Positions 16,497-64,000 of a stretch of DNA of 64,000 bases are shown in pieces. Under the pieces are notes generated by a model. That model saw only the letters and a program-made list of their open reading frames with translations, was not told the origin of the DNA and searched no databases. The stretch is from Pseudomonadota bacterium. Lineage in GTDB: Bacteria > Pseudomonadota > Gammaproteobacteria > Acidiferrobacterales > UBA6901. The translations under genes and the position numbers were made by a program. Within the stretch, counting starts at the first letter, position 1. Each line of letters opens with the position of its first letter. Location of the stretch: the NCBI GenBank assembly GCA_027364845.1, contig DAHXOO010000002.1, positions 12,156-76,155 of the forward strand. The letters run 5' to 3'.

Positions 16497-18525
<2,029 letters not shown>

Positions 18526-56349: not shown

Positions 56350-56940
56350 TCAGGACGGCATGCCGGCCATGCCCGCAGTTATCGCGAAACGCATCGCGTC
56401 CTGCGTCGACATGGGAACGGACTTGATGGCAGATCGTGGTACCAGCACCATGTGTCCGCCGATCTGATAACTCAGTGGTATGTACACCGCCACTGTGTCT
56501 TCGCTGCCCATTTCCGGCGGAAACCCGGCAAAATCCTGGCGGGTGACGAACCCGAGCGTACTCAGGTTCGTCTGGCCAAGAGTTACCAGTACCACGTGGC
56601 TGAAGCCACGATCCTCGCCGCCCGAAAAGAAGCGCATGAGGTCGCGCAGCGAACCGTAAATAACCTTGACCAGTGGAATCCGACCCAGGATGTTCTCGCC
56701 CCAGCTGAACAGACGGCGCACCACGAAGGCCCGCATCAGCACACCCAGGATGAAAACCAACAATACGCCGGCGATCACCCCCATGCCTACGTGGTACAGG
56801 CCGCGCGGCAGCACCAGCTTGATTCCGGTGCCTAAGATTGACTCCGCCCACGAAGCCAGCCGGATCAGGACATAAAAAGTGATGGCAATCGGCAATATTG
56901 CAGCCAGCCCGGTGAGAAACGTCTTGCTCAGACCTTTCAT
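56350..56940 (-). CDS. DUF502-family membrane protein
   Basis: N-terminus KTFLTGLAAILPIAITFYVL, a second TM helix, and the conserved ...IPLVKVIY..L.. segment typical of DUF502. Confidence 0.78.
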   Translation of the reverse strand: MKGLSKTFLTGLAAILPIAITFYVLIRLASWAESILGTGIKLVLPRGLYHVGMGVIAGVLLVFILGVLMRAFVVRRLFSWGENILGRIPLVKVIYGSLRDLMRFFSGGEDRGFSHVVLVTLGQTNLSTLGFVTRQDFAGFPPEMGSEDTVAVYIPLSYQIGGHMVLVPRSAIKSVPMSTQDAMRFAITAGMAGMPS

Positions 56941-57227
56941 GTCGCATGTCTCCTAAAGATATTCCTCGATGAGCAATAGTGTACGCCGTTTAGGTTGATT
57001 CTGGCCGGCCGAAAGGCCACTTATGCTGCTCTGCTGTACTCCACCACGACGAAGGATGTTGGGGGATCCGTCCGTCTGCCGCGCCGGGGCGACGATCGGA
57101 CGGCGGCTCTGCCAGCCCGTGATCGGTCGAGTTTTGTGTGTATAACAAGGCTATAGGGACGGTGACCGGCTTGCAGCGAGGAACGGTCTTGCAACCAGAA
57201 AGCATAAGCACCGGCGGTGAATCCACC

Positions 57228-58418
57228 ATGGAAAACGTAAGGCGCCTGCTGGGCGGCCTACGTAAAACCGCAGAGGGAGAAATCCTTCACGGCCTGATCG
57301 ACCGTGCGCTGCAGCGCTATCGAACAATGGACGGAGGCAGCGAACAGGCGTTCGCGGGGTTTTTACGTCGGCTGCTCGACAACTACGTCGACAAACCCAT
57401 CAGCGACCCTGTGACTCGGATCAAGGTCCGGGTTCTTCGCCAGCGTCTTGCCGCCTGCCTGCCGCAGACCTCCCGCGCAACCAGGACGTCTGAAAGGCAG
57501 GATGACCCTGCCAGGCATCCGGCTTTGGCGGAAGCGGCGCGGGGAGGAGCTCCGGCGCTCGCCGCTTCTCCCTCGACGACATCGGCTGCGTACATCGGTG
57601 ATGCCGTGCAGGCGCGGCAGCCTGACAACGCGGCGGCTGATACGATAACGGTGGATTCGCTCCCTATCGAGGCCACGCAGATACGGCCTGCGCTCAATCT
57701 GGGATTTGACGGCCTGTTGCAATCCGGCATGGCCACGATCAAGCACAAACACGGCGATGCCGATGGCCTCAGGAACCGTTTGATCCGCGGCATCGAGGAA
57801 CTCGTCCGCAACCAGCATGCGCTGGACGAACATCTGCAGGCGACCACGCGCTACCTCCGCGCAATCCATGCCGACAGGCACCACCTCGCCGATGCGCTAG
57901 AGCAGGCACGCTGCTACAGTCTTACCGATGAGCTCACGGGGCTGCCCAATCGCGCCGCCTTCCTCCGCCAGCTGGAAAGCGAGATCGGGCGCACGCGGCG
58001 CTACCGTTTCTCCTTGGCGCTGGCGCTGATCGATCTCGATGACCTCGGTGCAATCAATGACCGCCACGGACGCGATGTCGGCGATGCCGTGCTGAGTAGC
58101 TATAGCCGCGAAGTGCTGTCGCAGTTCCGCAGCTACGATATAGTTGCGCGCTACGGGAACGATGAGTTCGCCGTCCTGCTCCCCAACACACAACGCGAAG
58201 GCGCCATGTGCGCCCTGGAAAAGGCACGGCAGCGTGCCCGCGATATGCGCATCAAGCACCTGGGCAGGCCGCTGTCCCTCCCGAGTTTTTCGAGCGTTCT
58301 GACATTTTATGCGCCGGGCGAGAAACCTGCGCTCTGGCTTAAGCGGGCGAATGAGGCCCTGAGCCACGCGAAAGCCCAGGGTCCGCGACAATCGGTCGTG
58401 GCCTTGCAGACTGGCTAG
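57228..58418 (+). CDS. GGDEF-domain protein with degenerate active site (GNDEF) and an intact RxxD I-site
   Basis: C-terminal domain LTDELTGLPNRAAF...LIDLDDLGAINDRHG...FRSYDIVARYGNDEFAVLLPNT. The N-terminal ~230 aa are unrecognised. The start is taken at ATG 57228 (MENVRRLL). Confidence 0.8.
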   Translation: MENVRRLLGGLRKTAEGEILHGLIDRALQRYRTMDGGSEQAFAGFLRRLLDNYVDKPISDPVTRIKVRVLRQRLAACLPQTSRATRTSERQDDPARHPALAEAARGGAPALAASPSTTSAAYIGDAVQARQPDNAAADTITVDSLPIEATQIRPALNLGFDGLLQSGMATIKHKHGDADGLRNRLIRGIEELVRNQHALDEHLQATTRYLRAIHADRHHLADALEQARCYSLTDELTGLPNRAAFLRQLESEIGRTRRYRFSLALALIDLDDLGAINDRHGRDVGDAVLSSYSREVLSQFRSYDIVARYGNDEFAVLLPNTQREGAMCALEKARQRARDMRIKHLGRPLSLPSFSSVLTFYAPGEKPALWLKRANEALSHAKAQGPRQSVVALQTG

Positions 58419-58467
58419 CCGGGCAGATTTCGGCCGCTGCGGCCGCCCCAACCCCATCATCGCCTGT

Positions 58468-59910
58468 TTGCCTGGCTACCCAAAGGTGCGGCGGGGCAGT
58501 GCCCTTTCTCGCGCCATTTGTTATTCTTCTCCGGCTGGTAGATTTTCCCTTGCAGATCATGTGAATTCAGAACCAAACAAATGGGAGCTAGTCTTGGCCG
58601 CCGTTCCTGTCCCACCCGATGAATCGGAGCTGATCAGCAAGCTGCTGGCGCTCGCGACCACCCTGCTACAGACGCCCGACGGCACTGTGCTGCGCGCGCA
58701 GCTTGAGCGGGGCAGCAGCGTGCGCACCAACATACTCAAGTCGGTCGACCGTGCTTATATCGCCTTCGTCCACGCCCTGTTGCGCCAATACAGCAAGAAT
58801 CCCAAGAGCGACCCCGCTACCCGTGTGCGCACTATACTTATTCAACAGCGTATCGCTCCCTATCTGGAACCGGACAAGAGGGCGGGAACAGCAGCAGACC
58901 CAGGGTGGCAGGCCGCCGGAGCCGGTGCGCTTGGCGCAATTGAAAGCTTCGAGCAGCAGATAGCTTCGGTATTATGGTCCGTGAGAAACCTGGCGCAGGT
59001 CGACACGCAAGCTGAATATGCATTGGCGCCGGACAACCGGCGCCAGATACAGAGACGGATAAGCGACGGCACCGACGCTGTCCGCAGTCCGGATCCCCAT
59101 GCCGAGCACAACCGTCTTGCGGACATCCACACAGCGCTCGGTCAAGGTCTCGACCGGGCACTGTCCGAAACGATCGATTGCATCGCTCATATTAAGACCG
59201 CCCAGCTCGCCCTGCATCAAGCGGACAATACATCGGAGATCATCGCGTTCCGGCAAATCCTTTTCGATTGCATGGACGAACTGATTCAAGGCCAGGCCTG
59301 TCTGGCTGGGCACTTGCGCTCCGCCGACAGCCGCGCGCGCGAGTTGCGATTACTGCACGATCAGCCGGGGTCTGAGGCCGGACAGCCGCACGACCCGACG
59401 CTGACCGACGCGCTGACCGGCATCCCCAATCGCGCTGCCCTTTTGCATCGTCTCAGAGCCGAGACCGGGCGGGCACAGCGTTATGGAATGCCGCTGGCGC
59501 TGGCAATCCTGGATCCGGACAGACTCAATGACATCGGCAGTTTTGCTGGTGCCGCGGCAGCCGACGAAGTCGTGCGCTGCTACGCACAAGACATTCTGGC
59601 GAATTTCCGAGCCTACGATATGGTGGCGCGTTATAACCATGACGGGGAGTTTGCCGTGTTGCTACCCAACACAGGGCGCGAGCAGGCGGTATCGGCACTG
59701 CACAAGGCCCGACACAGGGTAAGCGGGACGTATTATCAGCACCGGGGCAGGCGGCTGTCGGCCCCGACGTTCTCTTCCGGCCTTACCTGGTATCTTTCCG
59801 GGGAACGTCCTGAAGATCTGTTGCAACGCGCGTCACAGGCATTGCGGCGCGCCAAGAGCAGCGGCACCAATCGCATCGAAACTGCTTTGCCGGAAACAAT
59901 TAGCTGCTGA
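58468..59910 (+). CDS. Paralogous GGDEF-like protein, more degenerate (NHDGEF; lost INDxxG motif), RxxD retained
   Basis: LTDALTGIPNRAAL...ILDPDRLNDIGSFAG...FRAYDMVARYNHDGEFAVLLPNT. It shares the N-terminal motif P(K/I)SDP(A/V)TR(V/I) with the upstream gene. The true start is uncertain; GTG 58561 is possible. Confidence 0.72.
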   Translation: MPGYPKVRRGSALSRAICYSSPAGRFSLADHVNSEPNKWELVLAAVPVPPDESELISKLLALATTLLQTPDGTVLRAQLERGSSVRTNILKSVDRAYIAFVHALLRQYSKNPKSDPATRVRTILIQQRIAPYLEPDKRAGTAADPGWQAAGAGALGAIESFEQQIASVLWSVRNLAQVDTQAEYALAPDNRRQIQRRISDGTDAVRSPDPHAEHNRLADIHTALGQGLDRALSETIDCIAHIKTAQLALHQADNTSEIIAFRQILFDCMDELIQGQACLAGHLRSADSRARELRLLHDQPGSEAGQPHDPTLTDALTGIPNRAALLHRLRAETGRAQRYGMPLALAILDPDRLNDIGSFAGAAAADEVVRCYAQDILANFRAYDMVARYNHDGEFAVLLPNTGREQAVSALHKARHRVSGTYYQHRGRRLSAPTFSSGLTWYLSGERPEDLLQRASQALRRAKSSGTNRIETALPETISC

Positions 59911-60010
59911 GCGTTTCATCAGGAATTACCGCGCGCCGGCGTTTGGCGGCAGGATAAACCAGAACCGGCGATTCTCAGGTCGTGCGCGGCCAGACACGCG
60001 GTGTCGGATA

Positions 60011-60403
60011 TCAACCGTGTCTTCTGGCTGCCAGTCCGATGTGCGTAACTCCGGCCACGCGGCAGGCATCCATCACCGCCATCAGGCTCTGGACTGAAGC
60101 CTGTTTCGCACCCTCAATGGTGACAACGACATGGGCCGGGTCGCGCCCCTGCAGGAGGGCCGTCAGCTGGACCGCGGAAAGCGTGCGCCCACCCACCGTA
60201 ATAATGCCCTCGGAATCCAGCGCTACCAGGACCTTCGGTCGTGGCAGGGAGGTAGCGGTAGCGCTATCGGGGAGACTGGTCGCGAGTCCCACTGATGGAA
60301 TCATGCGCAACGTGATCATGATAAAGAAGACCAGCAGGAAAAACATGATGTCGATCATCGGGATAATTTCGATGCGGGCTTTTTTTCTTTCGAAGTAGCG
60401 CAC
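60011..60403 (-). CDS. exbD: Biopolymer transport protein ExbD/TolR
   Basis: 130 aa; IEIIPMIDIMFFLLVFF single TM helix plus a periplasmic domain. It starts 1 nt after the exbB stop. Confidence 0.87.
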   Translation of the reverse strand: MRYFERKKARIEIIPMIDIMFFLLVFFIMITLRMIPSVGLATSLPDSATATSLPRPKVLVALDSEGIITVGGRTLSAVQLTALLQGRDPAHVVVTIEGAKQASVQSLMAVMDACRVAGVTHIGLAARRHG

Positions 60404-60404
60404 T

Positions 60405-61100
60405 TCAGATTTCTCCTGCTCTGAGCATGCGCGGAACGGCCGGGCGCTCGCGTCCGCGCGGACCGGCCTGCAGCGGAATCCGGTAATGCGGATACATCCG
60501 ATTGATGATCATCACTTTCAGCGTTTCAAGCTGGTGCATGATTACGCGCACCCGGTTGTTAAGTCCATTGAACAGCACCAGCCCGATGATGGCCACGAAC
60601 AATCCCGACGCGGTGGCCAACAGCGCCTCGGCCACACCGCCGGTGACCTGGCTGGGCGCGCCGGCGGCGTCTGAGAGCACATGAAAGGTGCTGAACATGC
60701 CGAGAATGGTTCCCAGGAGACCGAGCAACGGTGCCAGCGTGACAATGGTATCGAGCGCCCACAGGTAGCGGTCGATGCGGGGTGCTTCACGCAATATCGC
60801 CTCCTCGATCCTGTCGGAGAGTCGTTCGAACTCGTGATCCAGGTCGTGCTTGAGGGTGGCTGCCAGCACCTGGGCGGGGGGCAGATTCTTGCAGTTTTCG
60901 CCGAGATCCAGCAGTTGCTGCTCCTCGAGCCGGGTTACCGGGTCCAGCTTTGCCATGATCCGGTTTCCCGCCACGAGTGCCCGCTTAAGGTACCACGCCC
61001 GTTCCAGCGCGATGGTCAGGGCAATGAACAGCAGCAGCGCCATTAGGTAGACGATGTCGCCGGTAGAGTTTGCCGCATGCATGAAAGTGTCGAGATTCAT
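60405..61100 (-). CDS. exbB: MotA/TolQ/ExbB proton-channel protein
   Basis: Three TM helices with the conserved LGLLGTILGM and VAEALLATASGL segments. Confidence 0.87.
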   Translation of the reverse strand: MNLDTFMHAANSTGDIVYLMALLLFIALTIALERAWYLKRALVAGNRIMAKLDPVTRLEEQQLLDLGENCKNLPPAQVLAATLKHDLDHEFERLSDRIEEAILREAPRIDRYLWALDTIVTLAPLLGLLGTILGMFSTFHVLSDAAGAPSQVTGGVAEALLATASGLFVAIIGLVLFNGLNNRVRVIMHQLETLKVMIINRMYPHYRIPLQAGPRGRERPAVPRMLRAGEI

Positions 61101-61556
61101 ATGCCTTGCCCGTAATGATGAAGGTACCGTGGCTGTTGTCCAGGCGCGGATCGGGTACCGCGACTTGGGTCGACGCCTCGAAAATTCGAGTTGCCTTGTG
61201 CCCGCTGAGCCTCTATCCCATGCTGCCTGGGTTTTCGTCCAACCGTTCCGATTGTGGGCAACGACACACTGCGCCCGCTTGAAGCGGTCTGCTCACGCCC
61301 ACGCAAAGAGCCACTCCCGCAAAGCCGTGGCGGTCACTTCTGCACCGGACACTGCTGTTGCAATCGGCTTCGGAATCGATCGTGAATCTAGACCAGGAAT
61401 ATTACGCAGGCATGACGCTTCGATGACTTTGATGCGACCGGTGTACCGGTGGCACAACCCCTGGCCGATCCGATGCCGTCACCGTCTGCAGGCAGATACC
61501 GGCCTGGCAAACCGCTCCGCGGATGCAAGCACCACCCGGAGAATCGCCCACTACTA

Positions 61557-64000
61557 TCAAGAAAATTCGCGCAGGGTCAGCAGCGGTGGGCAGGTGAACA
61601 CAAAGCGCGTACCCCATACGCCAAAGAATCCGACCCCGATACCGCCACCGATCAGTCCGGCAAGCCACAGTCGCGGATCGACGCGGTAGTGGAGATGAAA
61701 CAGATGCGACGCGATAAGGTAGCCCGCGACTGTCGCGGCAAAAGCCGCCAGAATCCCGGAGAGCATTCCAAGGGCGACGAACTCCACCGCCAGACTCAGC
61801 GTCAGCTGGCGCGTGGTCGCACCCAAGGCACGCATCAGCGCGATCTCATGCGTGCGCTCGTCCTGCGTGGCCTGGACGGCGGCGTAGAGCACCGTCAGTC
61901 CTGCCAGCAAAGTAAAAACGAACACATATTCCAGTGACAGGTTCACGCGGTTCATGATGCTGCGGACTTGGGCCATCACCGCCTGCACGTCAATGATGGT
62001 GAGATTGGGGAAATGTTGCATCAGCTTCTGCAGCAGCCCGTGCCGGGTCGCAGCAAGATGAAAGCTCGTGATATACGTTGCCGGATAGCTGTCGAGCAGG
62101 CCGGGCGGAGCCACAACGAAGAAATTCACGCGGAAGGAATCCCACTCGACCCGCCGCAGATTCGCAACGCGGACAGAAATGTCCCGGTCTGCGATACGGT
62201 ATTCAAGCGTGTCGCCAAGCTTTATTCCCAGTGTCTTGGCCAGGCCCTGCTCCACCGATATGAGCGGCTTGCCATATTGCGCTACAGTCCACCATTGGCC
62301 CGCAATGACGTGATTGTCGCGCTGCGGTCGCGCGGCCCACGACAGATTGAACTCTCGCTCAACCAGATGGCGGGCGCGGATATTGGAGTAACTCGAGGCA
62401 TCCACCGGCTTGCTGTTGATCGCGAGCAGCCGCCCGCGCACCATCGGATAAAGCTCTGTGCCCTTCAGCCCGTTGGCAGCGAAAAACTGCTGCAGTGACG
62501 TGACCTGGTCGGGCTGTACATTGATGACGAACTGGTTCGGAATGCCCGACGGCAAGCTATGTTCCCACTCCCTGATCAGATCACCGCGCACGAGCGACAG
62601 CAGCAGTAGCAGCATGATGCTAACCCCGAATGCGACCACTTGCACAACACTGGTGCCGGCGCGGCGCGCGATGCTCGCAAGCGCGAAACGCCAGGCAACG
62701 CCGGAGTGCGCACGCAGCATCCTGAGCAGGCGCACCAATCCGTACGCCACCGCGCCCAGGATGACAAGTGTGGCCGAGGTACCGATGAGCAGGTAGGCCG
62801 TGAGCTGCAGATCACGCGTTTGCCAGAGCATGAGCGCGGCGATGACCGCCAGCGCAGCAGCATAAACCACCCAGGTTCGTGCCTGCATCTGGCCAAGGTC
62901 GCGCCGCAGTACGCGTGCAGGAGGCACGTCCCTCAGCCGCAGCACCGGAGGAAGAGCGAAACCAAGCAGGGCGGCCAGACCGGTAAACATGCCGCTCACT
63001 ACCGGAAGCCATGACGGTGGCGGAAGCGGTGCAACGACCAGGCCGGAAAGCAGGTACACGAGGACCTGCTGAGCAAAGTAACCGACGGCACAGCCGGCCA
63101 GGCTGGCGCCCAGACCGAGCCACAGCATCTGCAGTACATGAAGCCATAGAATAAAGCGCTGCGTGGCCCCGAGACAGCGCATGACCGCGGTACCGTCAAG
63201 ATGGCGCGTGGCATAGCGCCGTGTCGCCGTCGCGATGGCCACTCCCGCGAGCACCACGCTGACCAACGCGGCGAGGCCGAGAAACTTCTGCGCGCGGTCA
63301 AGCGCCTCGCGCAACTGCGGGTTGGCATCGCGAACGTCTTCGAGACGCTCCCCCGGTTGAAGCCGCCGGCCGACCCACCGCCGGAACGTCGCTAGCGCCG
63401 GCGCCGGACCGGCGATGAGCAGGCGGTAACCGACGCGACTGCCCGGGCCAATCAAGCGGGTAGCCGACATGTCATCGAGATTCATCAGCAGTCGGGGCGC
63501 GATACCAAACAGATCGCCTCCGCGGTCGGGCTCGTAACCGAGTACCTTGGCGATCGTGAGTACCGAGGAACCGAGCTTGAGCCTGTCACCTATGCGCAGC
63601 TCGAGACGAGTGAGCGCACGTGGACCCAGCCATACCGTGTTGCGTGCCGGGATGGCGCGCGTCGGCGACTCGCTGCCATAGGGAACTTGCGCGACCCGCA
63701 GCATCCCGCGTAGCGGGTAGCCGGTACTCACCGCCTTGACTGCGAGCAGTTGGGTCTTTCCGCGGGCGAGCACAACGCTTGGAAAACTGACTGTCTCCGC
63801 CGTTTCCAGACCGAGACTGCGGGCATTACCGGCGAACCCGGGATCGATAGGATCGGAGGAGACCACCGCGAGGTCTGCGCCGAGCAGCGCCGAGGCCTGA
63901 CCTTCCATGAGCTGCCGCACGCGATCGGTGAAAAACCCAACTGCGGTCGTGCTCGCGACGGCGATGGCGAGCGCCAATGCCAGCACCCGAAGTTCACCCG
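61557..64000 (-). CDS. FtsX-family ABC transporter permease, YbbP-like double-module type (5' end outside window)
   Basis: About 10 TM helices in two FtsX modules separated by large periplasmic loops. The reading frame remains open to the window edge (…GELRVLALALAIAV). Confidence 0.85.
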   Translation of the reverse strand, partial: GELRVLALALAIAVASTTAVGFFTDRVRQLMEGQASALLGADLAVVSSDPIDPGFAGNARSLGLETAETVSFPSVVLARGKTQLLAVKAVSTGYPLRGMLRVAQVPYGSESPTRAIPARNTVWLGPRALTRLELRIGDRLKLGSSVLTIAKVLGYEPDRGGDLFGIAPRLLMNLDDMSATRLIGPGSRVGYRLLIAGPAPALATFRRWVGRRLQPGERLEDVRDANPQLREALDRAQKFLGLAALVSVVLAGVAIATATRRYATRHLDGTAVMRCLGATQRFILWLHVLQMLWLGLGASLAGCAVGYFAQQVLVYLLSGLVVAPLPPPSWLPVVSGMFTGLAALLGFALPPVLRLRDVPPARVLRRDLGQMQARTWVVYAAALAVIAALMLWQTRDLQLTAYLLIGTSATLVILGAVAYGLVRLLRMLRAHSGVAWRFALASIARRAGTSVVQVVAFGVSIMLLLLLSLVRGDLIREWEHSLPSGIPNQFVINVQPDQVTSLQQFFAANGLKGTELYPMVRGRLLAINSKPVDASSYSNIRARHLVEREFNLSWAARPQRDNHVIAGQWWTVAQYGKPLISVEQGLAKTLGIKLGDTLEYRIADRDISVRVANLRRVEWDSFRVNFFVVAPPGLLDSYPATYITSFHLAATRHGLLQKLMQHFPNLTIIDVQAVMAQVRSIMNRVNLSLEYVFVFTLLAGLTVLYAAVQATQDERTHEIALMRALGATTRQLTLSLAVEFVALGMLSGILAAFAATVAGYLIASHLFHLHYRVDPRLWLAGLIGGGIGVGFFGVWGTRFVFTCPPLLTLREFS

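What the first reader, a model, noticed from the sequence alone, without database searches (positions are those of the whole stretch)
57228..59910. Tandem paralogous GGDEF-like proteins with degenerate active sites but conserved RxxD I-sites
The two adjacent genes encode proteins that align over the C-terminal domain: LTD(E/A)LTG(L/I)PNRAA...FR(S/A)YD(I/M)VARY...EFAVLLPNT...P(S/T)FSS.LT. They also share an N-terminal motif, P(I/K)SDP(V/A)TR. The catalytic GG(D/E)EF is GNDEF in the first protein (58155-58169). In the second it is NHDGEF with an extra residue (59635-59652), and that protein has also lost the (D)xDxF..IND..GH metal/substrate motif (ILDPDRLNDIGSFAG). Both keep RxxD exactly five residues upstream of the motif. 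This pattern predicts c-di-GMP receptors rather than cyclases. Their ~230-330-aa N-terminal regions match no sensor domain I recognise, so this may be a duplicated effector pair of unknown output.
Basis: partly seen in the sequence, partly recalled or inferred. Interest (0 to 1): 0.55.

Follow-up and report, generated by a model that had tools for sequence, protein, structure and literature searches.

The report
Paired degenerate GGDEF signalling proteins
Two neighbouring duplicate genes encode soluble c-di-GMP-type signalling proteins; the second has clearly lost its enzyme site but kept its c-di-GMP-binding site, a known way for such enzymes to become sensors, so the finding is real but fairly ordinary.

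Summary
Two adjacent + strand genes, A (57189-58418, 409 aa) and B (58594-59910, 438 aa), are full-length paralogues (34% identity, E 9e-54). Each has one GGDEF domain (117 and 93.5 bits). Aligned to PleD, A reads GNDEF and B reads NHD-G-EF with a one-residue insertion. Both keep RxxD five residues upstream.

B is almost certainly not a cyclase. All 14 B-clade proteins lack the guanine-binding Asn335 and Arg446, and 7 of 14 lack the catalytic acid.

A is less clear. It keeps every metal- and base-binding residue. GNDEF is fixed in its four close orthologues as well. One GNDEF domain is reported active and one GEDEF domain is reported inactive but GTP-binding.

Across 158 degenerate family members, the best-conserved columns include the c-di-GMP inhibitory-site residues: R359 and D362 (99%), the secondary-site R313 (99%) and position 390 (93%). 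This supports c-di-GMP sensing.

The N-terminus is an orphan four-helix bundle, followed by a disordered linker and a SiaD-like stalk. It occurs almost only in this family, which is centred on Acidiferrobacterales. B is a lineage-specific duplicate of the A type, and four relatives keep B alone. This is a new member of a known kind, with unknown output.

The parts
57189..58418 (+). Gene A: soluble stalked GGDEF protein, 409 aa, start TTG 57189
   Evidence: ORF. 100% identical to the 409-aa database protein P0001. GAGGA ribosome-binding site 6 nt upstream. Orthologue homology extends upstream of ATG 57228. No transmembrane segment, maximum KD19 0.80.
57189..57458 (+). A: N-terminal four-helix bundle carrying the conserved SDPxTR motif (57396-57419)
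   Evidence: AF2 helices 2-13, 15-32, 38-55 and 61-77 in ATG numbering, pLDDT 84. No Pfam or PDB match. The profile finds only 195 cluster representatives among 1.84 billion; of the 83 new full-length ones, at least 67 carry a recognisable RxxD-plus-motif GGDEF signature.
57471..57650 (+). A: Ala/Pro/Thr-rich linker, predicted disordered
   Evidence: pLDDT below 50 for residues 82-141 in ATG numbering. Variable length and composition in the family alignment.
57663..57917 (+). A: helical hairpin and long stalk helix leading into the GGDEF domain
   Evidence: AF2 helices 146-173 and 179-230. Aligns with the SiaD stalk by sequence (7e6g, query 185-391) and by fold (best Foldseek hit 7e6g, E 2.8e-17).
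57921..58403 (+). A: GGDEF domain
   Evidence: PF00990, 117.1 bits. Superposes on PleD at 1.6 A over about 165 columns.
57975..58004 (+). A: ESEIGRTRRY; R268 corresponds to PleD R313, the secondary inhibitory site
   Evidence: Ungapped HMMER alignment to PleD. The column is 99-100% Arg across the family. Role of R313 from PMC8041772 and PMC8457831.
58128..58139 (+). A: RSYD, primary inhibitory site (PleD R359-D362)
   Evidence: R and D are each kept in 156 of 158 degenerate family members.
58155..58169 (+). A: GNDEF in place of GG(D/E)EF (PleD G369 replaced by N)
   Evidence: The same state is found in window A and in all four of its 56-60%-identical orthologues.
58419..58593 (.). 175-bp spacer between A and B
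   Evidence: No terminator-like or promoter-like site found here. Whether the genes are co-transcribed is undetermined.
58594..59910 (+). Gene B: paralogue of A, 438 aa, start TTG 58594
   Evidence: ORF. Matches the 438-aa database protein P0121. GGGAG ribosome-binding site 6 nt upstream. 34% identical to A over the full length. No transmembrane segment.
58594..58869 (+). B: N-terminal domain homologous to that of A (PKSDPATR at 58801-58824); end approximate
58948..58992 (+). B: FEQQIASVLWSVRNL, a conserved linker motif in the B-clade sequences aligned and absent from the A type
   Evidence: Alignment columns about 175-200. Coordinates.
59401..59874 (+). B: degenerate GGDEF domain
   Evidence: PF00990, 93.5 bits. 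Alignment to PleD and SiaD.
59455..59484 (+). B: RAETGRAQRY; R293 corresponds to PleD R313, the secondary inhibitory site
59506..59550 (+). B: ILDPDRLNDIGSFAG; both Asp kept, K332 replaced by N and N335 by G (H340 replaced by A in the next codon, 59551-59553)
59608..59619 (+). B: RAYD, primary inhibitory site
59635..59652 (+). B: NHDGEF, a degenerate motif with a one-residue insertion
   Evidence: Six of the 14 B-clade proteins carry the insertion.

Best explanation
A and B are two paralogous, soluble, cytoplasmic proteins of an uncharacterised family centred on Acidiferrobacterales. Each has the same four parts: an orphan four-helix bundle of about 80 aa, a disordered linker, a helical stalk and a GGDEF domain. 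This overall design resembles SiaD.

Inferred: the stalk makes them parallel dimers. B has lost the ability to bind and condense GTP. It keeps the complete product-binding inhibitory site, namely RxxD, the Lys at PleD position 390 and the secondary-site Arg at PleD position 313. B therefore most likely acts as a c-di-GMP sensor. An intercalated c-di-GMP dimer would cross-link the two GGDEF domains of a dimer, as in PleD and DgcR, and change what the stalk and N-terminal bundle present to an unidentified partner.

A has the same inhibitory site and a nearly intact active site, with GNDEF in place of GGDEF. It is either a second sensor or a weak, product-inhibited cyclase.

Shown: domain content, paralogy, residue states, conservation pattern and gene order. 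Inferred: dimerisation, c-di-GMP binding, loss of catalysis and the existence of a partner.
For: Both proteins carry a GGDEF domain and are full-length paralogues.

Residue table against PleD:
- B clade: N335 lost in 14 of 14, R446 lost in 14 of 14, position 370 is Gly in 7 of 14, and position 369 is variable. R359, D362, R366 and K390 are invariant, and K442 is kept in 13 of 14 (Arg in the other).
- Clade C paralogues are canonical at all 17 positions in 11 of the 12 tabulated; the twelfth, the short P0146, departs at 340, 390, 442 and 446.

In 158 degenerate members the most conserved GGDEF columns include R313, R359 and D362 at 99% and K390 at 93%. The active-site columns fall to 46-76% (with D327 at 120 of 158). 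The roles of RxxD, R390 and R313 in cross-linking by a c-di-GMP dimer are taken from PMC8041772 and PMC8457831.

B orthologues are intact at 43-71% identity, so B is not a pseudogene. The AF2 model gives bundle, disordered linker, stalk and GGDEF. The best sequence and fold match is SiaD, 7e6g. Neither protein has a transmembrane segment. Degenerate GGDEF domains with an intact inhibitory site are established c-di-GMP receptors, for example PopA, PelD, CdgA and SgmT (PMC3974145).
Against: No binding or activity data exist for any member of this family. RxxD, R313 and K390 are equally conserved in the canonical clade, where they would serve ordinary product inhibition. Their retention could therefore partly reflect structural constraint or inheritance.

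A's active site is close to canonical, and one GNDEF domain has been reported active (PMC12900916). 'Receptor rather than cyclase' may therefore be wrong for A.

No output domain or conserved functional neighbour was found. The flanks are housekeeping genes: malic enzyme, Mdh, DUF502, ExbBD and YbbAP-like genes.
Confidence: 0.6

Rival explanations
1. A is a working, product-inhibited diguanylate cyclase with an unusual GNDEF motif. Only B is a non-catalytic paralogue. B may modulate A, for example by forming stalk-mediated heterodimers that have only one competent half-site.
For: A keeps D327, D329, N335, D344, R366, D370, E371 and K442. GNDEF is found in window A and in all four of its close orthologues, and it recurs elsewhere in the family. 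Position 369 in degenerate members is mostly Asp or Asn (92 of 158). From general knowledge, these are the residues other than Gly that best tolerate a turn conformation. The GNDEF domain of ZMO0401 is reported to have cyclase activity (PMC12900916, secondary citation). In other lineages the family occurs as a pair of one canonical and one degenerate-prone copy. Examples are the C-A tandems in L003, L004, L007, L008 and L009, and the GGDEF plus GEDEF pair in L085.
Against: Published active variants are (G/S/A)G(D/E)EF, which vary at the first position (PMC3974145). The second-position variant GEDEF of CC3396 is cyclase-inactive (PMC4823724). A also has K332 replaced by G and R446 by P. Four relatives keep B without A at the locus, so B does not need A in cis.
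Confidence: 0.3
2. A senses GTP rather than c-di-GMP. Its inactive but nucleotide-binding A-site would report the GTP level, as in Caulobacter CC3396/PdeA, and pass that signal through the stalk and N-terminal domain.
For: A keeps all guanine- and metal-binding residues and has a second-position substitution like the GEDEF of CC3396, which binds GTP without catalysis (PMC4823724).
Against: There is no EAL or other enzymatic output domain to regulate. B cannot work this way because it has lost N335. The best-conserved residues in degenerate members are the inhibitory-site residues, not the A-site residues.
Confidence: 0.07
3. The degenerate copies are decaying duplicates with no nucleotide-dependent function, acting as scaffolds or on their way to becoming pseudogenes.
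For: The active-site motif is very diverse across the family, for example KSDEF, SADTF, DHATF and QDDRF.
Against: Intact full-length ORFs are retained in many genomes at 43-71% identity. The N-terminal domain, the stalk and the inhibitory-site residues are invariant. B is kept even where A is lost.
Confidence: 0.03

Closest known systems
Degenerate-GGDEF c-di-GMP receptors (PopA of Caulobacter, PelD of Pseudomonas aeruginosa, CdgA of Bdellovibrio, SgmT of Myxococcus)
   Same: The GGDEF fold has a non-canonical active-site motif and an intact RxxD inhibitory site. In those proteins the inhibitory site is the c-di-GMP binding site (PMC3974145).
   Different: The other domains differ. PopA has receiver domains, PelD is membrane-bound with GAF, and SgmT is a histidine kinase. 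Here there is an orphan four-helix bundle, a linker and a stalk. Binding and output are untested.
SiaD of Pseudomonas aeruginosa (PDB 7e6g)
   Same: It is the best sequence and fold match for both proteins. It shares the plan of a small N-terminal domain, a long dimeric stalk and a GGDEF domain, with RxxD, the secondary-site Arg (R125, equivalent to PleD R313) and the position-390 residue (PMC8457831).
   Different: SiaD has a canonical active motif and is activated by SiaC binding to its stalk. The NCBIfam SiaD model scores 119.7 and 96.7 bits against a cut-off of 290. The N-terminal domains are unrelated. No siaABC-like genes lie next to the pair.
PleD / DgcR product inhibition by domain cross-linking
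   Same: All four contact residues are present in A and B: R359, D362, position 390 (Lys here) and R313. They are near-invariant in the family (PMC8041772).
   Different: In PleD and DgcR the mechanism switches off an active cyclase. In B there is no activity to switch off, so the same binding event would have to be read out in another way.
CC3396/PdeA GEDEF domain and ZMO0401 GNDEF domain
   Same: Both are substituted at the second motif position, as A is.
   Different: Both are GGDEF-EAL proteins. They point in opposite directions for activity, inactive GTP sensor versus reported active (PMC4823724, PMC12900916), so they do not settle A's status.

Membership tests
GGDEF domain (Pfam PF00990) | Profile match above the gathering score of 23.8 bits | tested here: met
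   A scores 117.1 bits and B 93.5 bits, each covering almost the whole 161-position model.
Catalytically competent diguanylate cyclase | (G/S/A)G(D/E)EF motif | tested here: not met
   A has GNDEF. B has NHD-G-EF with an insertion. One GNDEF exception is reported in the literature (PMC12900916).
Catalytically competent diguanylate cyclase | Guanine-binding N335 and D344; metal-binding D327 with E370/E371; phosphate-binding K442 and R446 (PleD numbering) | tested here: inconclusive
   A keeps all except R446 (now P), and also has K332 replaced by G. B lacks N335 and R446, while its D327, D344, D370, E371 and K442 are present. The feature is not met for B and nearly met for A.
Catalytically competent diguanylate cyclase | Synthesis of c-di-GMP from GTP | not testable with these tools
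   Needs an enzyme assay.
Degenerate-GGDEF c-di-GMP receptor (PopA/PelD/CdgA class) | Non-canonical active site together with an intact RxxD inhibitory site | tested here: met
   RSYD and RAYD lie five residues upstream of the degenerate motifs. R and D are each kept in 156 of 158 degenerate family members.
Degenerate-GGDEF c-di-GMP receptor (PopA/PelD/CdgA class) | Measured c-di-GMP binding that depends on the inhibitory site | not testable with these tools
   Needs DRaCALA, ITC or MST with R-to-A and D-to-A mutants.
Degenerate-GGDEF c-di-GMP receptor (PopA/PelD/CdgA class) | An identifiable output (domain or partner) | tested here: not met
   There is no further Pfam or NCBIfam domain. The neighbours are housekeeping genes and are not conserved with the family.
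SiaD (NCBIfam NF038266, equivalog) | Score at or above the curated cut-off of 290 bits | tested here: not met
   119.7 bits for A and 96.7 bits for B.
SiaD (NCBIfam NF038266, equivalog) | Encoded with siaA, siaB and siaC | tested here: not met
   The flanks are malic enzyme, Mdh and DUF502 upstream, and ExbD, ExbB and an FtsX-type permease downstream.
GTP-sensing degenerate GGDEF (CC3396/PdeA type) | A degenerate GGDEF domain fused to the EAL domain it regulates | tested here: not met
   Neither protein has an EAL or HD-GYP domain.

The most novel reading that the evidence does not exclude
The family is a previously undescribed c-di-GMP signalling module. Its stalked GGDEF proteins are recruited through an orphan N-terminal four-helix bundle. 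They typically work as a pair of one catalytic and one non-catalytic paralogue that heterodimerise and are locked by c-di-GMP cross-linking. In the window's lineage both copies would have given up catalysis, so the pair acts purely as a c-di-GMP-operated switch on an unknown partner.
Probability: 0.15. Interest if true: 0.5.

Novelty: new member of a known kind. Interest (0 to 1): 0.3.

Why it matters
Roughly a quarter of GGDEF domains have degenerate motifs (PMC3974145), and sequence alone often cannot say which are sensors and which are still enzymes.

This family shows a graded series within one architecture: a fully canonical clade, a clade that varies mainly at the second motif position, and a clade with a wrecked active site. 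The inhibitory-site residues stay near-invariant throughout. That makes it a convenient natural test set for two questions. How tolerant is the second Gly of GGDEF? Is inhibitory-site retention a reliable marker of receptor function?

The family also marks an uncharacterised N-terminal domain that is tied to c-di-GMP signalling in sulfur-oxidising Gammaproteobacteria. Beyond that, the finding is a routine case of a known evolutionary route.

Tried and rejected
- Literature search on the bare motif strings GNDEF, GDDEF, GEDEF and GKDEF returned mostly noise such as surnames and acronyms. Whole-word searches combined with 'diguanylate cyclase' were needed.
- Pfam at E up to 10 on 41 N-terminal domains gave only scattered chance hits, and the PDB profile search gave nothing significant.
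The source organism is therefore known only through its relatives, which are MAGs labelled Acidiferrobacterales or Gammaproteobacteria.
- I looked for a remnant of gene A in the DUF502-B gaps of the genomes that keep B alone. The only hit was a weak tblastn match (E 0.028) whose translation contains a stop and no motif, so I rejected it.
- The promoter and terminator scan of 56800-60200 was uninformative about operon structure.
- SiaD orthology was rejected on score and gene context.
- No other GGDEF gene and no Rfam family other than a TPP riboswitch, so no c-di-GMP riboswitch, is present in the window.
- The flanks of the window's locus are shared only with the closest relatives, so gene context gives no functional lead.
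Full report
**What is there**

The region holds two + strand ORFs, at 57138/57228-58418 and 58468-59910. The first protein is 100% identical to a 409-aa database protein and the second to a 438-aa one.

The 409-aa form of gene A starts at TTG 57189, six bases after GAGGA. The residues it adds (QPESISTGGEST) align with the N-termini of orthologues. The 438-aa form of gene B starts at TTG 58594, six bases after GGGAG. I therefore take gene A as 57189-58418 and gene B as 58594-59910, with a 175-bp spacer. No promoter-like or terminator-like site was found in the spacer.

Neither protein has a hydrophobic segment long enough to span a membrane (maximum KD19 about 0.8).

**Checking the observation**

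Both proteins hit Pfam GGDEF and nothing else, at 117.1 and 93.5 bits against a cut-off of 23.8. They align with each other over nearly their whole length (34% identity, E 9e-54).

HMMER alignments to PleD and a family alignment containing the PleD GGDEF domain give the following states in PleD numbering:
- A keeps D327, D329, N335, D344, R359, D362, R366, G368, D370, E371, F372 and K442. It has K332 replaced by G, H340 by R, G369 by N and R446 by P.
- B keeps D327, D329, D344, R359, D362, R366, D370, E371, F372 and K442. It has K332 replaced by N, N335 by G, H340 by A, G368 by N, G369 by H and R446 by T. It also has a Gly inserted between positions 370 and 371.

One refinement is that B keeps the two metal-site Asp residues and has lost the base-binding Asn, rather than the whole DxD...IND...GH element.

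**Architecture**

An AlphaFold2 model of A, built with 101 aligned relatives, has mean pLDDT 82. In numbering from ATG 57228 it shows:
- a four-helix bundle at residues 1-77;
- a disordered Ala/Pro-rich linker at 82-141;
- a helical hairpin whose second helix (179-230) runs into the GGDEF domain;
- a standard GGDEF fold.

The best match is SiaD of P. aeruginosa (7e6g), both by sequence and by fold (E 2.8e-17 over 260 columns). SiaD is itself described as a small N-terminal domain, a long dimeric stalk and a GGDEF domain (PMC8457831). The GGDEF domain of A superposes on PleD at 1.6 A.

Modelled alone, the N-terminal bundle has pLDDT 84. It has no significant fold match in the PDB (best E 0.73) and no Pfam, NCBIfam or PDB sequence match.

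A profile of the bundle was searched against 1.84 billion cluster representatives. It found only 195 proteins at E of 0.001 or better. Most of the 150 listed are 340-500 aa long, and the rest are shorter sequences. Of the 83 new full-length hits, at least 67 carry a recognisable RxxD-plus-motif GGDEF signature. The domain is therefore essentially private to this GGDEF family.

**The family and its three clades**

Full-length relatives are numerous: more than 1,500 proteins at E of 1e-10 or better among the candidates scored. Where named, they come from MAGs labelled Acidiferrobacterales, Sulfuricaulis, Candidatus Muproteobacteria, Thiogranum, Thiohalobacter and other Gammaproteobacteria.

An NJ tree of the stalk plus GGDEF region separates a clade C from a clade that contains the A type and, as its sister, the B type.

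- Clade C is canonical at all 17 catalytic and allosteric positions examined, with GGEEF, in 11 of the 12 proteins tabulated; the short P0146 is the exception.
- The A type varies mainly at the second motif position. Among the 120 best hits there are 35 GGDEF, 29 GDDEF and 15 GNDEF, plus GKDEF, GQDEF, GEDEF, A(D/E)DEF and others.
- Window A and its four 56-60%-identical orthologues all share K332G, G369N and R446P.
- The B clade (14 proteins, 43-100% identical to B) has lost N335 and R446 in every member. It has Gly at the catalytic position 370 in 7 of 14. Its motifs include NHDGEF, GNGGEF, ANGGEF, GGDGEF, GKGEF, GAGEF, GENGEF, GEDGEF, GEDEF and GHDEF.
- At the level of 50% clusters the N-domain family also includes motifs as far gone as KSDEF, SADTF, DHATF and QDDRF.

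**What is conserved when the active site decays**

I compared 158 family members with a non-canonical motif. R359 and D362 are each kept in 156. The active-site positions fall well below that: D327 in 120, N335 in 97, G369 in 8, and position 370 as Asp or Glu in 115.

When all GGDEF columns are ranked by conservation in these degenerate members, the top group (99%) contains R359, D362 and the Arg at PleD position 313. The Lys at PleD position 390 reaches 93%. Position 360, inside RxxD, is variable.

According to the structural literature, RxxD plus R390 form the primary inhibitory site of PleD. R313 of the partner GGDEF domain (R125 in SiaD) forms the secondary site. An intercalated c-di-GMP dimer cross-links the two domains through these sites (PMC8041772, PMC8457831).

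In A these residues are R314, D317, K345 and R268. In B they are R339, D342, K371 and R293. This pattern is the strongest computational support for c-di-GMP binding. It is not proof, because the canonical clade conserves the same residues, presumably for ordinary product inhibition.

**Is A a cyclase?**

The literature accepts (G/S/A)G(D/E)EF as active and shows that first-position tolerance is idiosyncratic (PMC3974145). For the second position I found two cases that point in opposite directions. The GEDEF domain of Caulobacter CC3396 is cyclase-inactive but binds GTP (PMC4823724). The GNDEF domain of Zymomonas ZMO0401 is stated to have cyclase activity (PMC12900916, citing Li, Xia et al. 2023; I could not read the primary paper).

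A keeps every metal- and base-binding residue. In degenerate family members the second position is mostly Asp or Asn (92 of 158). From general knowledge of turn propensities, these are the residues most compatible, after Gly, with a hairpin-turn conformation. This is an inference that I did not test on coordinates.

K332 and R446 also vary among family members with a canonical motif, so they weigh little. I therefore treat A's catalytic status as open, at roughly 55-60% inactive. B I regard as non-catalytic with high confidence.

**Gene order**

The A-B tandem sits between DUF502 (minus strand; malic enzyme and Mdh lie further upstream) and ExbD/ExbB plus a YbbP-like permease (minus strand). 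The arrangements found elsewhere are:
- A followed by B in L001, where B is cut by the contig end, and in L085. In L085 the A-type copy is canonical GGDEF and B is GEDEF.
- Probably A followed by B in three further cases, where A-type and B-type proteins share the same longest-contig length. This is an inference.
- B alone in exactly the same slot in four related assemblies (L081/L082, L083/L084, L089, L090). I found no convincing remnant of A there.
- The A type alone after malic enzyme in a more distant relative (L088).
- A tandem of clade C followed by the A type in Sulfuricaulis- and Muproteobacteria-like genomes (L003, L004, L007, L008, L009, and fragmentary in L047).
- B at the conserved locus plus an unlinked canonical clade C gene in one MAG, DBS.bin8 (L089 and L011).

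B is therefore a lineage-specific duplicate of the A type. The tandem is only partly conserved, and B does not need A next to it. No conserved non-housekeeping neighbour suggests an output.

**Mechanism proposed**

By analogy with SiaD, and from the predicted long helix, the stalk probably makes parallel dimers (inferred). At high c-di-GMP, an intercalated dimer of the nucleotide would bridge RxxD and K390 of one GGDEF domain to R313 of the other. This would fix the two domains relative to the stalk (inferred from residue conservation and from the PleD and DgcR structures).

In clade C enzymes this would be product inhibition. In B, and perhaps in A, it would be the signal itself. The signal would be read out through the stalk, through B's clade-specific linker motif FEQQIASVLWS, or through the conserved N-terminal bundle by an unknown partner. 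This last step is speculative.

**Comparison and verdict**

This is the well-known route by which GGDEF enzymes become c-di-GMP receptors, as in PopA, PelD, CdgA and SgmT. Here it occurs in a SiaD-like stalked architecture with an unclassified N-terminal domain.

The pair is not SiaD: it scores 119.7 and 96.7 bits against a cut-off of 290, has no siaABC genes nearby, and has an unrelated N-terminal domain. It is not a CC3396-type GTP sensor either, because it has no EAL domain.

I classify it as a new member of a known kind.

Noticed in passing
window 18430-18523 (- strand): TPP riboswitch (RF00059), 71.8 bits against a gathering score of 54.3. It is the only Rfam family match in the window. 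No tRNA genes were found in the 64 kb.
   Followed up: no
window 58948-58992: The B-clade sequences aligned share a conserved short motif, FEQQ(I/V)ASVLWS, inside the otherwise variable linker. It is absent from the A type and might be a docking element.
   Followed up: partly
Orthologue similarity continues through these 13 codons.
   Followed up: yes
L081, L083, L089, L090 (relatives of the window locus): Four related assemblies have only the B-type gene between DUF502 and the next downstream gene (ExbD in three, a large PAS/GAF gene in L089). The A-type gene is missing and I found no recognisable remnant of it.
   Followed up: partly
L003, L004, L007, L008, L009, L047: In Sulfuricaulis- and Muproteobacteria-like genomes the same family forms a different tandem. 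A fully canonical GGEEF paralogue (clade C) lies directly upstream of an A-type gene with GGDEF or GEDEF.
   Followed up: partly
window 60011-63986 (- strand) and relatives L081/L083: Downstream of the pair lie exbD, exbB and a large FtsX-type permease. In relatives these are followed by an ABC ATPase and a divergent GDSL lipase, an arrangement that recalls E. coli tesA-ybbA-ybbP (from memory).
   Followed up: no
family-wide, PleD position 369: The second motif position in degenerate members is strongly biased to Asp or Asn (92 of 158) rather than being random. This suggests the hairpin turn is preserved even where Gly is lost.
   Followed up: partly
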